Assembly: GCA_049997875.1 (NCBI GenBank)
Contig: JBEKRC010000003.1
Coordinates: 115,687-179,686, forward strand
Length of the DNA: 64,000 bases
Origin: Minisyncoccia bacterium
Lineage (GTDB): Bacteria > Patescibacteriota > Minisyncoccia > UBA6257 > 2-01-FULL-56-20
Reading direction: 5' to 3'
In this document: in pieces, positions 6,791 through 37,498 of the stretch
How positions within the stretch are numbered: position 1 is the stretch's first letter
Layout: each line of letters starts with the position of its first letter
Notes under the pieces: generated by a model
Told to the model about the DNA's origin: nothing
What the model saw: the letters and a program-made list of their open reading frames with translations, nothing else
The model's database searches: none
Position numbers and translations under genes: made by a program

Positions 6791-7053
6791 ACGTTAAGCA
6801 ATTGTAGCGGAGACGGCCCGAGGTGTCAACAAAAAATGAATTCCCCGCCCCCAGGAATGAAGAATGAAGCTGGTGGTGGGGCGGGGTGATATGATTCCGC
6901 CGCGCGGAGTGGGAATCCAGAAGTGTGCTGTACGAGTGTGCGCACACAAAGGAGAGGAAAACCCACTCCGCGAGCGTTTGTCCTTGGTTTAATAACAAAT
7001 TACCCCATCTTTCATTTTCTGTCAAGCGCTATTACAATGAGATTGACAAAGGA

Positions 7054-7127
7054 GGGCCTGTAGCTTAGTGGCAGAGCAGCCGGTTTGCATCCGGCAGATA
7101 GGGGTTCGATTCCCCTCAGGTCCACCA
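7054..7127 (+). tRNA. tRNA-Ala (TGC) with encoded CCA
   Basis: Cloverleaf built by hand: acceptor GGGCCTG/CAGGTCC, anticodon loop TTTGCAT, T-arm GGGGTTCGATTCCCC, 3' CCA. Confidence 0.9.
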
Positions 7128-7269
7128 GGAATAACGAATACTCTTAAAAGGGACGGTGTCGTTTCCTCCGGCGGGGAAACGCACCTCGCTCTCGCCACGG
7201 CAGACGACCTAAAGGTCGTCTCAAACCGCCGTGGCTCCGAGATGCCCTTTTAAGAGTATTCGTTATTCC
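7128..7269 (+). terminator. Complex terminator-like structure. A perfect 25-bp stem (GGAATAACGAATACTCTTAAAAGGG) encloses a conserved multi-hairpin insert of about 90 nt.
   Basis: Begins immediately after tRNA-Ala and is followed by a T-rich run. The interior has GTTTCC-N8-GGAAAC and GACGACC-N4-GGTCGTC hairpins homologous to the fusA 3' element. Confidence 0.5.
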
Positions 7270-7283
7270 TTATTGTTCTCTTG

Positions 7284-7413
7284 GGGAATCAAACGAGGAA
7301 AGGGGTCGGGGAAACCTTAGGTTTCCCCGTGTCGGAAAGAAGTTGAGAACCGTGGGTTCTCAAAGCGCAGGCCGGTCTTACCGGCCGAGCAGTGAGATTC
7401 CCCTCATGTCCAC
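7284..7413 (+). ncRNA. Conserved structured element E1, a candidate ncRNA or mini integrated element. It ends with a duplicate of the tRNA-Ala 3' end.
   Basis: About 85 percent identical to 36367-36517 over the conserved blocks, with compensatory hairpin changes. The 3' end GATTCCCCTCATGTCCAC copies the tRNA-Ala T-stem plus acceptor. Confidence 0.4.
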
Positions 7414-7493
7414 GGAGAACAAGCAAGGCAGTGAGACTCCCCTTAAAAAGGGAGCCGCAGTGGCTCTCTCGTGGCAACACACTGCGGCCCAAC

Positions 7494-7790
7494 TCACGGC
7501 AACAAAAACGGCATAAAAATGCGTTCGCTACCCAGGAGTCTTTGCAGATAAAGATGGCGTAGGATCGGCGGATCGCCCACGAAGAACACTTCCACCGTCA
7601 TCTCCCCTTTTCGACTTAACTTGGTAGCACAAAGGGATTCAATCGCCCTTTCTCCTTCCTCCACCTGGAGAAGTTCGAGGGCAGTGAAGAGTTCGCGACG
7701 GAACTCAAGAGCGCTCGGCGGGATCATAATGACCACTATTTTCCCGCCGCGGGCAAGACGAAGCTCGTTTCCATTCAGTATCACGTTCAC
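7494..7790 (-). CDS. Hypothetical protein (98 aa)
   Basis: ORF only; weak resemblance to small beta-grasp proteins. Confidence 0.35.
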   Translation of the reverse strand: MNVILNGNELRLARGGKIVVIMIPPSALEFRRELFTALELLQVEEGERAIESLCATKLSRKGEMTVEVFFVGDPPILRHLYLQRLLGSERIFMPFLLP

Positions 7791-36214: not shown

Positions 36215-36286
36215 GGCCTCATCGTCTAATGGCTAGGACGGCGCCCTTTCACGGCGTAAATCCGGGTTCGATTCCCGGTGGGGCTA
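36215..36286 (+). tRNA. tRNA-Glu (TTC)
   Basis: Acceptor GGCCTCA/TGGGGCT with two GU pairs; anticodon loop CTTTCAC; T-arm CCGGGTTCGATTCCCGG. Confidence 0.75.
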
Positions 36287-36299
36287 CGGGCAAAGCAAA

Positions 36300-36364
36300 A
36301 GGGATTTGAAAGGAGTACTCAGAAGGGCTCCTTTCAAATCCCTTTTGCTTTGCTTTGTCTTCTA
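36300..36364 (+). terminator. Long perfect hairpin (26-bp stem) terminator after tRNA-Glu
   Basis: GCAAAGCAAAAGGGATTTGAAAGGAG, loop, then the reverse complement, followed by TTTGTCTTCT. Confidence 0.55.
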
Positions 36365-36366
36365 TC

Positions 36367-36493
36367 GGGAATCGAACGAGGAAAGGGGTCGGGGAAACCC
36401 TAGGTTTCCCCGTGTAGGAAGGTCGCGCGTTGCGCGCGACAGTTCGGCACCGAGGGTGCCGAAAGCGCAGGGCGCGAAGCGCCCGAGCAGTGA
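36367..36493 (+). ncRNA. Conserved structured element E2, homologous to E1
   Basis: Shares GGGAATCGAACGAGGAAAGGGGTCGGGGAAACCYTAGGTTTCCCCGTGT, AAAGCGCAGG and GAGCAGTGA blocks with E1; variable hairpins co-vary. Confidence 0.4.
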
Positions 36494-36517
36494 GATTCCC
36501 GGTGGGGCTACGAAAAT
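36494..36517 (+). repeat. Duplicate of the tRNA-Glu 3' end (GATTCCCGGTGGGGCTACGAAAAT); att-like direct repeat, copy 2
   Basis: Its first 20 nt are identical to tRNA-Glu 36268-36287; its last 20 nt (36498-36517) are identical to 37795-37814. Confidence 0.7.
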
Positions 36518-36577: not shown

Positions 36578-37498
36578 CTAACTCTTGGCAGCCAGTTTTT
36601 CAATCTCGCGATCGAGTGCTGCTTTCTTCTGTTCCGCCTCACGAATCGCTTCGAGCCGTTTGTGTTCCTTCGCTCTCAAATCGTACTCTTTGAGGAACCA
36701 AGCGGCCTTTGAGCCGACATAGCACGCCTCGTCGATCGTGGCAGCCAGGCGGTTCTTCGTTACGGGATGGTACGACGTCTTGAGTTCATTGCGCAAGGCG
36801 ATCTCTTTGAGTTTAGCGAGACATGCCTCGTCAAGCTCAAGTATCCACTCCCTCAACACATCGATCCTTTCCAACTGGGCAAAGACTTCAACCATCCAGG
36901 GCTTCGCCGCATCCACCCGAACGCGCGTTGCGGCGATACGTTTTTCTGCTTCATCTTTCTTGCTCGCGTCGTACCATTGCGTACCCGGCTCTTTCCATTT
37001 CCAGATGAAATTCGCCAGATTCAGTAGGAAGTCGAGGGCCTGCTGCTCGTTGTGAGACTGTTCCTCGCGATACGGAAGATTGCGGATTTCCACGCCATTG
37101 TCGAACCGTCGTTTCTCGACCCTGAAGAAGTTCTGGATGATTGGGAAAAGCCGTTCGGAGACAACCGTTCCCTCCCAGAACTCGTTAAACCTATCACCAT
37201 AACGGCCTCCTTCCAGAAGCTCCGCCTTGAAAAAATTCAAACAGAGCATGTCGAAGGCTTTGCGCGCCAACTGATGGCGGAGGTCGCTCTGCGTCTTTTG
37301 GATGCGTCTTCCGTTCGAGTCATACCCGAGATCGTACTCCTTACTCCCATCGGTTGGGAGCTGGAGCAAATAACGGTCCGCCCAGCCGTCGGCAATGATG
37401 AGATAGAACATGATCCGATCAATGCGGTCATATTTTTTCTCCCCGTCATGCCGTTGCTCAAGCGAAATACTGAATCCGACATGGAGCAAGCTCTCCAT
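36578..37498 (-). CDS. Hypothetical protein (306 aa), cargo of the tRNA-Glu-linked cassette
   Basis: Long ORF, mostly helical with a coiled-coil C-terminus; no recognisable motif. Confidence 0.65.
   Translation of the reverse strand: MESLLHVGFSISLEQRHDGEKKYDRIDRIMFYLIIADGWADRYLLQLPTDGSKEYDLGYDSNGRRIQKTQSDLRHQLARKAFDMLCLNFFKAELLEGGRYGDRFNEFWEGTVVSERLFPIIQNFFRVEKRRFDNGVEIRNLPYREEQSHNEQQALDFLLNLANFIWKWKEPGTQWYDASKKDEAEKRIAATRVRVDAAKPWMVEVFAQLERIDVLREWILELDEACLAKLKEIALRNELKTSYHPVTKNRLAATIDEACYVGSKAAWFLKEYDLRAKEHKRLEAIREAEQKKAALDREIEKLAAKS

What the first reader, a model, noticed from the sequence alone, without database searches (positions are those of the whole stretch)
7284..7413. Conserved structured element with compensatory hairpin changes, found after two different tRNAs
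Element E1 after tRNA-Ala (7284-7413) and element E2 after tRNA-Glu (36367-36517) share three blocks. These are GGGAATCRAACGAGGAAAGGGGTCGGGGAAACCYTAGGTTTCCCCGTGT, then GGAA...AAAGCGCAGG, then GAGCAGTGAGATTCCC.

Two intervening hairpins have entirely different sequences but keep their pairing. The first is GTTGAGAACC/GGTTCTCAA in E1 and GGTCGCGCG/CGCGCGAC in E2. The second is GGCCGGT/ACCGGCC in E1 and GGGCGC/GCGCCC in E2. This is classic covariation for a functional RNA.

The 5' end GGGAATC is complementary to the 3' GATTCCC. Each element then continues into an 18-19 nt copy of the acceptor 3' strand of the tRNA it follows: Ala in E1 and Glu in E2.

So each element looks like a tRNA-T-arm mimic fused to a structured body. 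Each is either a novel tRNA-linked ncRNA or a mini integrative element that rebuilds its target tRNA's 3' end. I could not match it to tmRNA, SRP RNA, 6S RNA or RNase P RNA.
Basis: seen in the sequence. Interest (0 to 1): 0.8.

Follow-up and report, generated by a model that had tools for sequence, protein, structure and literature searches.

The report
Tiny gene-end-replacing insertion element
The two repeats are copies of a very small, non-coding, hairpin-rich mobile DNA element, widespread in the tiny-genome Patescibacteria; it inserts into the ends of tRNA genes and conserved protein genes while supplying a replacement gene end, and it matches no described RNA or transposon family.

Summary
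The repeat is real. E1 (7283-7413) and E2 (36367-36512) share a conserved core closed by a stem, GGGAATC/GATTCCC. Each ends in an 18-19 nt copy of the 3' end of the tRNA it follows. No Rfam family matches. Pattern scans found about 80 further distinct copies, all in Patescibacteria contigs. Only about 40% follow tRNAs. The rest sit at conserved motifs near the ends of protein genes (GT4, RNase HI, L16, S9, BipA, EF-G). The layout is always the same: intact gene end, spacer or terminator hairpin, an arm complementary to the target, the folded core, then an orphan second copy of the gene end. One identical-flank allele pair shows that the orphan copy is the native gene end and that the working copy came in with the element. 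Close relatives lack E1, and one lacks E2. The core hairpins covary strongly. No recombinase lies nearby, there is no room for a promoter, and the core's orientation follows DNA topology rather than transcription. Best reading: a non-autonomous, site-specific integrative mini-element that acts at the DNA level, not a tRNA-linked ncRNA gene. Its enzyme, and the role of the target-complementary arm, are unknown.

The parts
7054..7127 (+). tRNA-Ala(UGC), the target gene. Its last ~18 nt (7108-7125, plus CA at 7126-7127) form the left repeat, inferred to be the copy carried by the element.
   Evidence: ARAGORN and Rfam. The gene ends CCACCA here, but CCACG or CCACA at the same, otherwise identical tRNA in relatives L109 and L111.
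7128..7269 (+). H1, a long branched hairpin with a 25-bp outer stem, directly after the tRNA. It is part of the inserted unit and probably acts as the replacement terminator.
   Evidence: Fold -90.2 kcal/mol, z = -13.4. A homologue follows tRNA-Glu(CTC) in L017: 12 differences, 5 compensatory pairs, 0 broken pairs. Absent from L109.
7270..7282 (+). Spacer, or a decayed outer part of the target-complementary arm.
   Evidence: Homologous to the spacer in L017. It does not pair with the tRNA-Ala acceptor strand (read from the sequence).
7283..7294 (+). Arm S' (GGGGAATCAAAC), the 5' strand of stem P1, complementary to the T-loop/T-stem 3' sequence GATTCCCC.
7295..7395 (+). E1 core. In order: GAGGAAAGGGGTC; P2 7308-7328; purine linker; P3 7343-7363; P4 7370-7386; GAGCAGTGA.
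   Evidence: CM R1 scores 93.3 bits. Covariation across 81 distinct copies.
7396..7413 (+). Right repeat, an orphan copy of the tRNA-Ala 3' end (17 of 18 identical) and the 3' strand of P1.
7426..7445 (+). Remnant of an older copy (GCAGTGAGACTCCCCTT), which makes this locus a two-insertion array.
   Evidence: 3 mismatches to the 3' block. Arrays of this kind are seen in L011, L022 and L097.
36215..36287 (+). tRNA-Glu(UUC), the target gene. The left repeat is 36270-36288.
36290..36353 (+). H2, a perfect 26-bp hairpin that is part of the inserted unit.
   Evidence: Fold -48.1 kcal/mol, z = -9.8. The orthologous hairpin in L015 shows matching changes on both arms.
36354..36377 (+). Arm S'. The decayed outer part TTTGTCTTCTATC pairs with GGTGGGG only through G-U pairs. 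It is followed by GGGAATC and GAAC.
36378..36493 (+). E2 core: P2 36391-36411; extra hairpin 36422-36440; P3 36443-36463; P4 36470-36484; GAGCAGTGA.
   Evidence: CM R1 scores 63.6 bits plus a separate P3 hit. Fold.
36494..36512 (+). Right repeat, an orphan copy of the tRNA-Glu 3' end (19 of 19 identical) and the 3' strand of P1.

Best explanation
E1 and E2 are two integrated copies of a family of very small, non-coding, non-autonomous insertion elements found in Patescibacteria. The core is about 70-130 nt, and the whole inserted unit is about 0.2-0.3 kb.

An integrated copy reads, in order: the intact target gene, whose last segment is a copy carried by the element; a spacer, which at tRNAs is a terminator-like hairpin H; an arm S' complementary to the target sequence at the insertion point; a conserved folded core (GAGGAAAGGGGUC, hairpins P2 and P3, optional further hairpins); and then the displaced native gene end as an orphan repeat. 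This is the attL-element-attR layout of a Campbell-type, site-specific integration. The crossover lies at the base of stem P1, which is formed by S' and the repeat. In tRNAs that point is the T-loop/T-stem boundary.

Shown here: the family exists, it is polymorphic (occupied and empty alleles), the working gene end is foreign while the orphan is native, and the hairpins are kept by compensatory change on one particular strand.

Inferred: the active form is single-stranded top-strand DNA, or a transcript of a mobile intermediate. In that form P1 reproduces the target duplex, S' selects the target by base pairing, and the conserved core is the handle for a recombinase supplied in trans. Once a copy is in place, homologous recombination between strains can also carry it along.
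For: 1. Family and host range. Exact-pattern scans gave 19 true copies in GTDB genomes and about 65 in metagenomes. All named records are Patescibacteria (Moranii-, Nomura-, Saccharibacteria, Minisyncoccia). None were found in IMG/VR, phage or plasmid collections.

2. Same topology at unrelated targets. Of 83 distinct copies, 34 follow tRNAs of at least 10 specificities. The others sit at the N-termini of GT4, RNase HI, L16, BipA and EF-G, or at the C-terminus of S9. Direct repeats span 15-88 nt, and stem P1 spans 8-28 bp.

3. A clean allele pair. L054 (occupied) and L113 (empty) have identical flanks for more than 800 nt. The N-terminus of the empty allele equals the orphan repeat, and the working N-terminus of the occupied allele is foreign.

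4. E1 and E2 are polymorphic. tRNA-Ala is followed by neither H nor E in L109 (neighbouring gene 94% identical) or in L111. tRNA-Glu lacks E2 in L116 (94%) but carries it in L015 and L117.

5. Arrays that decay with distance from the gene (L011, L022, window 7426-7445) and a tandem unit of 167 nt in L045.

6. Covariation. 94.4% of cells are paired, 11 of 17 pairs show double changes, and 0 of 500 shuffles reach this. All 9 pairs of P3 covary.

7. Evidence against an RNA gene. Terminator-like hairpins precede the element and no promoter was found. At 5'-end targets the core is antisense within the host leader, and the orphan reading frame reads through it.

8. Strand-specific loops. CGAAG occurs 35 times against 7 for CTTCG, and GCGAAGC 14 times against 1 for GCTTCGC.

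9. Within the window, only the tRNAs whose T-arm reads GATTCCC (Ala, Glu) carry the element. Arg, Lys and Asn do not.
Against: No recombinase, reverse transcriptase or transposase recurs near the 95 copies, and no autonomous relative was found. No excised circle or junction was observed.

G-U and A-C mismatch counts do not settle whether RNA or DNA folds, or which strand (28 against 19 in P1; similar in P2 and P3). Orientation relative to GC skew is not significant (31 of 50).

It is unexplained how a lineage changes both its arm and its carried gene end when it changes target. E1's spacer resembles that of an element at tRNA-Glu(CTC), yet both of E1's repeats are tRNA-Ala.

The comparison of E1 with L109 is a replacement of the whole downstream region, not a clean indel.

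At the L054 junction, 4 nt differ among the native, left and right copies. A single simple crossover does not explain this.
Confidence: 0.6

Rival explanations
1. The element moves by an RNA-guided or RNA-mediated route. A transcript of the element (arm S' plus the core scaffold) guides a trans-encoded recombinase to the target, as a bridge RNA does for IS110. Alternatively the transcript is reverse-transcribed at the target.
For: The layout is guide plus scaffold: a variable, target-complementary arm directly abuts an invariant structured core. The arm matches the intact target better than its partner in cis (12 loci against 3, with 12 ties). In tRNA copies the arm matches the true T-loop, while the right repeat carries a generic GATTC. 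E1's left repeat ends in CCA although related genes do not encode CCA, as if copied from a mature tRNA.
Against: No promoter is evident and terminator hairpins lie upstream. No recombinase or reverse transcriptase lies nearby. There is no excess of G-U over A-C mismatches. CCA is absent from the left repeats of the other tRNA copies. The published survey reports no group II introns in Patescibacteria (PMC13011429).
Confidence: 0.2
2. The element is a passive cassette. It has no machinery of its own and spreads only by natural transformation and homologous recombination. The conserved gene body serves as one homology arm and the orphan gene end as the other. The core is a neutral or host-useful structure.
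For: L054 and L087 share an identical element and right flank but have gene bodies only 73% identical. That shows recombinational transfer between lineages, with the breakpoint in the most conserved stretch. All targets are conserved motifs.
Against: This does not explain one nearly invariant core at 10 or more unrelated targets within single lineages. Examples are E1 and E2 in this window, L014 and L015 in one genome, and GT4 and BipA sharing one core subtype. It also does not explain the target-specific arm. The right-hand arms at tRNAs are only 14-19 nt.
Confidence: 0.1
3. It is a free-standing, tRNA-linked structured ncRNA gene: a T-arm or acceptor-stem mimic that is processed like a tRNA.
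For: The fold is stable and conserved with compensatory changes. In some copies P1 is a 12-22 bp helix made of the whole acceptor and T-stem 3' strand plus its complement, followed by a terminator (L022, L024, L026).
Against: About 60% of copies have nothing to do with tRNAs. In the window copies the acceptor strand is unpaired. There are no hits from Rfam, ARAGORN or tRNA-like models. There is no promoter. Presence and absence vary between close relatives. At 5'-end targets the core lies antisense to the host gene.
Confidence: 0.05
4. The copies are decayed scars (attR-side remnants) of large integrase-encoding islands or prophages that once sat at these genes.
For: They show duplicated tRNA 3' ends, tandem arrays and a preference for tRNA genes, as classical islands do. 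One copy carries a cargo ORF (L023, DUF4440).
Against: About 80 copies have the same compact architecture with a near-invariant, covarying core across the phylum. No copy contains an integrase. No viral, phage or plasmid record carries the core. The fresh L054 insertion is only about 160 nt of element plus a replacement gene end.
Confidence: 0.05

Closest known systems
Integrase-mediated genomic islands and prophages at tRNA genes (attB in the T-loop or 3' end), and their integrase-less derivatives (CIME-like cis-mobilisable elements)
   Same: They insert into the 3' part of a tRNA or the end of a protein gene. The intact gene is restored by a copy carried on the element. The displaced native fragment lies at the far end. 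Tandem accretion arrays form.
   Different: This element is 0.2-0.3 kb and encodes no protein. It has a conserved multi-hairpin core and an internal arm complementary to the target. One core family uses many unrelated targets. No autonomous parent was found.
Folded single-stranded recombination sites: integron attC and CTX-phage attP(+)
   Same: They are non-coding sites in which hairpin structure, rather than stem sequence alone, is conserved. A hairpin stem imitates a duplex recombination site. Function is specific to one strand.
   Different: In attC and CTX the stem carries the conserved recombinase boxes and the loop varies. Here the stem is a copy of the target and varies, while the loop (the core) is conserved. 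The R-box consensus is absent outside tRNA copies. No IntI or Xer link was shown.
IS110/IS1111 bridge (seek) RNAs
   Same: The element encodes a structured non-coding scaffold that carries sequence complementary to the target and spans the insertion point. Insertion is site-specific into conserved sequences.
   Different: No adjacent DEDD/Tnp recombinase gene is present. The arm is one contiguous stretch that pairs in cis, not split guides in two internal loops. This element duplicates the gene end, whereas IS110 leaves only a core dinucleotide.
IS200/IS605 miniature derivatives (PATEs, REPINs) and TnpB/IscB omega-RNAs
   Same: They are small, non-autonomous and rich in hairpins, with two similar hairpins each preceded by a short conserved stretch. 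A guide-like sequence lies adjacent to flanking DNA.
   Different: IS200/IS605 elements make no repeats and insert 3' of a 4-5 nt motif. No TnpA or TnpB lies nearby. No Rfam omega-RNA or HEARO family matches.
Rickettsia palindromic elements (in-frame selfish palindromic insertions)
   Same: They are short palindromic elements tolerated inside essential genes of reduced genomes. Here the bottom strand of the core has no stop codons and is read through in the host leader.
   Different: RPEs do not duplicate the gene end and have no target-complementary arm. There is no sequence similarity.

Membership tests
Any Rfam 15 family (including tRNA-like, tmRNA, 6S, SRP, RNase P, ribozymes, HEARO/omega-RNA) | A covariance-model match at the family's gathering score | tested here: not met
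   Over the window and 15 loci, only tRNAs and rRNAs reach gathering score. At E <= 10 over 7000-7600, nothing credible covers E1.
tRNA-like RNA / T-arm mimic | A T-arm (5-bp stem with a 7-nt T-loop) or cloverleaf detectable by tRNA finders | tested here: not met
   ARAGORN finds only the 5 genuine tRNAs.
tRNA-like RNA / T-arm mimic | A paired acceptor stem ending at the discriminator base | tested here: inconclusive
   Fully paired in L022, L024 and L026. Unpaired in E1. Paired only through G-U pairs in E2.
Site-specific integrative element at a tRNA or gene end (Campbell type) | Direct repeats of the gene end flank the insert, with an intact gene on one side | tested here: met
   E1 17 of 18, E2 19 of 19. 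Repeats of 15-88 nt in 40 or more loci.
Site-specific integrative element at a tRNA or gene end (Campbell type) | The working gene end is carried by the element and the native end is displaced | tested here: met
   L054 against the empty allele L113. E1's left repeat ends CCACCA, against CCACG or CCACA in relatives.
Site-specific integrative element at a tRNA or gene end (Campbell type) | Occupied and empty sites occur among relatives | tested here: met
   tRNA-Ala is empty in L109 and L111. tRNA-Glu lacks E2 in L116. GT4 is empty in L113-L115.
Site-specific integrative element at a tRNA or gene end (Campbell type) | A recombinase (integrase) encoded in the element or a known partner | tested here: not met
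   There are no ORFs in the element. No recombinase family recurs within +/-3 kb of 95 copies. Neighbours in the window are rpsL, rpsG, fusA, an M50 peptidase and DoxX.
Site-specific integrative element at a tRNA or gene end (Campbell type) | An excised circular form, or excision and integration activity | not testable with these tools
   This needs read-level data or an experiment.
Integron attC | R''/R' boxes RYYYAAC...GTTRRRY at the base of the hairpin | tested here: not met
   tRNA copies read ..TCGAAC / GTTCGA.. because of the T-loop. Non-tRNA copies have unrelated stems, for example TGGGGCGGGGT or CCCGGGCC.
IS110/IS1111 with bridge RNA | An adjacent DEDD-Tnp recombinase ORF and two internal guide loops | tested here: not met
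   No such ORF was found. The fold is a 3- or 4-way junction closed by one contiguous arm.
IS200/IS605 PATE / omega-RNA | No target duplication, insertion 3' of a fixed 4-5 nt motif, and a TnpA/TnpB association | tested here: not met
   Long repeats are present. No common motif lies 5' of the insertion points (read from the sequences). No TnpA or TnpB was found.
Group I introns of Patescibacteria tRNAs | Inserted within the tRNA (anticodon loop) and matching an Intron_gpI model | tested here: not met
   The element lies downstream of complete tRNAs. No Rfam intron hit was found. The introns are described in PMC13011429.

The most novel reading that the evidence does not exclude
This is a previously unrecognised class of nucleic-acid-guided mobile element. 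A roughly 100-nt conserved scaffold is joined to a programmable arm that base-pairs across the insertion point. This directs a recombinase encoded elsewhere, or possibly a housekeeping enzyme, to integrate the element at conserved motifs near gene ends. The element carries a replacement gene end so that essential genes survive. If so, it is a natural minimal guide-plus-scaffold integration system in bacteria with very small genomes.
Probability: 0.35. Interest if true: 0.92.

Novelty: new variant of a known kind. Interest (0 to 1): 0.75.

Why it matters
Patescibacteria have genomes of about 1 Mb and were thought to carry few mobile elements, yet they hold many copies of this element inside or next to essential genes: tRNAs, ribosomal proteins and translational GTPases. 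The element shows a compact way to insert into essential genes without killing the host, namely by replacing the gene end. At 5'-end targets the orphan reading frame reads through the element and stops at or near the real start codon.

If the target-complementary arm really selects the site, the family would be a new natural example of programmable integration with a very small scaffold. Its unknown enzyme would then be worth finding.

On the practical side, these elements explain orphan tRNA 3' fragments, duplicated gene starts and odd N-terminal extensions in the annotation of CPR genomes.

Tried and rejected
Approaches that led nowhere:
- Rfam at gathering score and at permissive thresholds gave no family.
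- IMG/VR scans with two patterns gave only chance hits or nothing. GenBank phages and PLSDB plasmids gave no match.
- Seven full-text literature searches returned nothing describing the element. The hits were a group I intron paper and the TIGR-Tas paper, neither relevant.
- Clustering ORFs around 95 copies to find an associated enzyme recovered only the target genes.
- Calling the functional strand from G-U against A-C mismatches was not decisive once scoring was made symmetric. An earlier apparent G-U excess was produced by my own scoring scheme.
- Orientation relative to GC skew was not significant.
- Exact look-up of the rpsL protein returned only identical strains.

Ideas considered and dropped:
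- RNase P RNA, suggested by the GAGGAAAG motif. The element is too small, is multicopy, and has no P4 partner.
- tmRNA or Y-RNA.
- A self-cleaving ribozyme.
- A group I or group II intron.
- A T-box.
- A DGR template repeat. The order is wrong, there is no reverse transcriptase, and the substitutions are not specific to adenine.
- A target-site duplication made by staggered cuts. The repeats span 15-88 nt, and in L054 the left copy is foreign.

Full report
**1. Checking the observation.**

Block 1 is 49 nt long with two differences between the copies. A 25-mer taken from it occurs exactly twice in the window, against none expected. The 3' block GAGCAGTGAGATTCCC is identical in both copies. Both elements fold into a multi-helix junction closed by GGGAATC/GATTCCC, with energies far below those of shuffled sequence (z = -4.8 and -4.5). 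The E1 tail matches the 3' end of tRNA-Ala at 17 of 18 positions, and the E2 tail matches tRNA-Glu at 19 of 19.

One detail needs correcting. E2's GTCGCGCG/CGCGCGAC hairpin is an extra insertion. The true partner of E1's TTGAGAACC/GGTTCTCAA hairpin is E2's TTCGGCACC/GGTGCCGAA, which differs by three compensatory pairs.

Between each tRNA and its element lies a very stable long hairpin: H1 at 7128-7269 (z = -13) and H2 at 36290-36353 (z = -10).

A covariance model of the core finds only these two copies in the 64 kb window.

**2. It is a large family and it is not specific to tRNAs.**

No Rfam family matches, even at permissive thresholds.

An 18-mer scan of GTDB genomes gave 19 true copies. 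All lie in Patescibacteria MAGs. Nearly all sit 50-150 nt downstream of a tRNA on the same strand, and each ends in a copy of that tRNA's 3' end. The tRNAs are Glu, Trp, Gly, Asp, Gln, Ile, Tyr and Ser. The window organism itself is a Minisyncoccia bacterium.

A 20-mer scan of metagenomes changed the picture. Of 83 distinct copies, only 34 are of the tRNA type. Most of the others lie at conserved motifs near the ends of protein genes:
- the N-terminus of a GT4 glycosyltransferase (ITKATWGGAQ);
- the N-terminus of RNase HI (YTDGGARGNPG);
- the N-terminus of ribosomal protein L16;
- the N-terminus of BipA and of EF-G (AHVDHGKT);
- the C-terminus of ribosomal protein S9.

**3. Anatomy.**

Every copy has the same layout:
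- the gene body;
- the left repeat, which is the gene end and leaves the gene intact;
- a spacer;
- arm S', the reverse complement of the first 8-28 nt of the repeat;
- the core;
- the right repeat, an orphan second copy of the gene end, 15-88 nt long.

The core reads as follows:
- GAGGAAAGGGGUC;
- P2 (GGGRAAAC...GUUUYCCC);
- a purine-rich linker (GUGGAGGAAGG);
- optional hairpins;
- P3 (..RAACC-GNG-GGUUY..);
- often P4 followed by GACG or GAGCAGUGA.

Across 81 distinct copies, 94.4% of cells are paired and 11 of 17 pairs show changes on both sides. All nine pairs of P3 covary, and none of 500 shuffles reaches the observed values.

The core's orientation is fixed relative to this DNA topology, not relative to transcription. 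It is sense and downstream at 3'-end targets (tRNAs, rpsI). It is antisense and upstream at 5'-end targets.

**4. It is mobile, and it carries the replacement gene end.**

The decisive case is the GT4 locus. L054 (occupied) and L113 (empty) are identical for more than 800 nt on both sides. The protein of the empty allele begins MKQAPKKKVLFLITKATWGGAQ. That is the orphan right repeat of L054. The working N-terminus of L054 (MNTKKKILF...) is a different sequence, 86% identical at the nucleotide level with an indel. So the native end was displaced and the working end arrived with the element, as happens in a Campbell-type integration.

For the window itself:
- The tRNA-Ala of the closest relative, L109 (neighbouring M50 peptidase 94% identical), is identical up to GGTCCAC. 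It is then followed by unrelated sequence with neither H1 nor E1. L111 is also empty. L110 carries a different core type at this site.
- The left repeat of E1 ends CCACCA, whereas the relatives read CCACG or CCACA. This is consistent with the left copy being foreign.
- tRNA-Glu carries E2-type elements in L015 and L117 but not in L116 (DoxX 94% identical).

Other signs of repeated insertion:
- Arrays in which the repeats decay with distance from the tRNA (L011, L022, L097).
- A remnant of an older copy at window 7426-7445.
- A perfect 167-nt tandem unit in L045, made of repeat, spacer, S' and core.
- An element in L023 that carries a 124-aa DUF4440 cargo gene.

**5. Is the functional form RNA or DNA?**

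Several points argue against an independent RNA gene. At tRNAs the element lies behind a terminator-like hairpin, and no promoter-like site was found. At protein 5' ends the spacer is only 0-25 nt. There the host's own transcript contains the antisense of the core. The orphan reading frame runs through the core, which has no stop codons on that strand. It then ends at an ATGA overlap with the real start (L054, L043), or runs in frame into the gene (L055, L066, L064, L082).

Mismatch statistics do not show the G-U tolerance typical of RNA helices. P1 has 28 G-U against 19 A-C, and P2 and P3 are similar.

The loops, however, are specific to one strand. CGAAG occurs 35 times against 7 for CTTCG (9.5 expected from shuffles), and GCGAAGC 14 times against 1 for GCTTCGC. 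To my own knowledge, d(GCGAAGC) is an exceptionally stable DNA mini-hairpin.

I therefore favour a top-strand single-stranded nucleic acid, probably DNA, as the active form. This is an inference.

**6. The arm S' and the crossover point.**

S' abuts the invariant GAGGAAAGG, and the right repeat abuts the 3' end of the core, so P1 closes the core.

In tRNA copies the right repeat begins with a generic GATTC even when the tRNA reads GAGTC or GAATC, while S' matches the true tRNA (L022, L023, L026). So the first ~5 nt of the right repeat belong to the element. The crossover lies at the T-loop/T-stem boundary, and S' spans it.

S' is more complementary to the intact gene than to its partner in cis in 12 loci, less in 3, and equal in 12. 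This fits a guide role, but it is also what neutral decay of the orphan copy would produce.

In the window, only the two tRNAs whose T-arm reads GATTCCC carry the element.

The outer parts of the arms in E2, L015 and L017 look like decayed complements of the acceptor strand. E1's spacer is homologous to that of L017, which sits at tRNA-Glu(CTC). H1 is likewise homologous to L017's hairpin, with 5 compensatory pairs and none broken.

**7. What remains unknown.**

No recombinase, reverse transcriptase or transposase recurs near the copies. No copy was found in viral, phage or plasmid collections. Orientation relative to GC skew is not significant. Seven literature searches found no description of the element.

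L054 and L087 share the same element and right flank but have gene bodies only 73% identical. This shows that homologous recombination also moves established copies between lineages.

It is unexplained how a lineage acquires a new arm together with a new gene-end copy.

**8. Comparison with known systems and verdict.**

The element behaves like a site-specific integrative element at gene ends. It meets three defining tests: repeats, restoration of the gene, and empty sites in relatives. It lacks an integrase and any known parent element. It fails the defining tests for Rfam families, tRNA-like RNAs, attC, IS110 bridge RNA, IS200/IS605 derivatives and group I introns.

I file it as a new variant of a known kind: a non-autonomous integrative mini-element with a conserved folded scaffold and a target-complementary arm. 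I give a substantial chance (about 0.35) that it represents a new, nucleic-acid-guided class.

Noticed in passing
window 7128-7269; L017 (after tRNA-Glu-CTC): The long branched hairpin H1 is itself a conserved module. Against its L017 homologue it shows 12 differences, 10 of which form 5 compensatory pairs, with none broken. L010, L013, L110 and L117 have hairpins of the same three-way design but different sequence. E2 and L015 have a simple 26-bp hairpin at the same tRNA-Glu site where L117 has the three-way type.
   Followed up: partly
window 7273-7280 and 7415-7422: TTGTTCTC in the spacer before E1 is complementary to GAGAACAA just outside the right repeat. Pairing them would loop out the acceptor copy. 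This could be chance (about 1%) or part of the older array.
   Followed up: no
L011 ~1030-1190; L110 7170-7300 (minus strand); L015 3420-3522; L117 ~1256-1300; L022 after 1560; L116 ~1150-1190: Other core types follow the same design, starting GGAATCGAAC and ending in a tRNA 3' end. There is an 'X' core with three AT-rich hairpins. There is a 'Z' core in which a long-range helix, GCGGCACCCCGG/CCGGGGUGCCGC, encloses a P3-like hairpin. Z sits downstream of tRNA-Ala in L110. It sits directly upstream of the tRNA-Glu 5' end in L015 and L117, where the window has none. L116 has a bare GGAATCGAAC...GTTCGAACTTCC hairpin with no core.
   Followed up: partly
L053, L060, L062, L069, L075, L079, L083, L058: A subgroup lies between same-strand genes. 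Its members share a 3' block, GCGA..YTTGAA..ACTATG, that ends in the start codon of unrelated downstream genes. In these copies CCCAUU or CCCUUU pairs with the AAAGGG of the conserved 5' block. Their repeats and arm are unclear.
   Followed up: partly
L054, L043, L055, L066, L064, L082: At 5'-end targets the orphan start codon opens a reading frame that runs through the reverse complement of the core (peptides such as ..VFSRPLSS.. or ..VFPTPFLAPP..). It either stops at a TGA that overlaps the real ATG (ATGA) or continues in frame. This suggests translational coupling or N-terminal extensions. Gene callers extend these proteins accordingly.
   Followed up: partly
L054 4700-4870 against L113: At the junction, the 4 nt just before CCCCA differ in all three copies: native GCCT, left CCCG, right TCTG. 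A single simple reciprocal crossover does not explain this.
   Followed up: no
window tRNAs at 7054, 8572, 26882, 36215, 48192: All five tRNAs lie on the + strand. Only tRNA-Ala encodes CCA, and that CCA lies in the left repeat inferred to be carried by the element. Relatives' tRNA-Ala genes do not encode CCA.
   Followed up: partly
L012, L076, L106 (about 140-810 nt upstream of the core): A 223-aa ORF with a GLYMGEGSK motif, resembling a LAGLIDADG-type homing endonuclease, lies next to the tRNA-Gly that carries the element. It is seen only in three near-identical loci.
   Followed up: no
L007, L011, L025, L029 (GTDB record titles): MAGs labelled 'uncultured Bdellovibrionales' carry the element with contexts typical of Patescibacteria. 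The labels may reflect mis-binning or mis-classification.
   Followed up: no
L116 250-1071: In OY970382.1, an Mrr-type restriction endonuclease gene sits downstream of the tRNA-Glu locus, where the window has an unrelated 306-aa ORF (36578-37498, no Pfam hit). The region downstream of this tRNA is variable.
   Followed up: no
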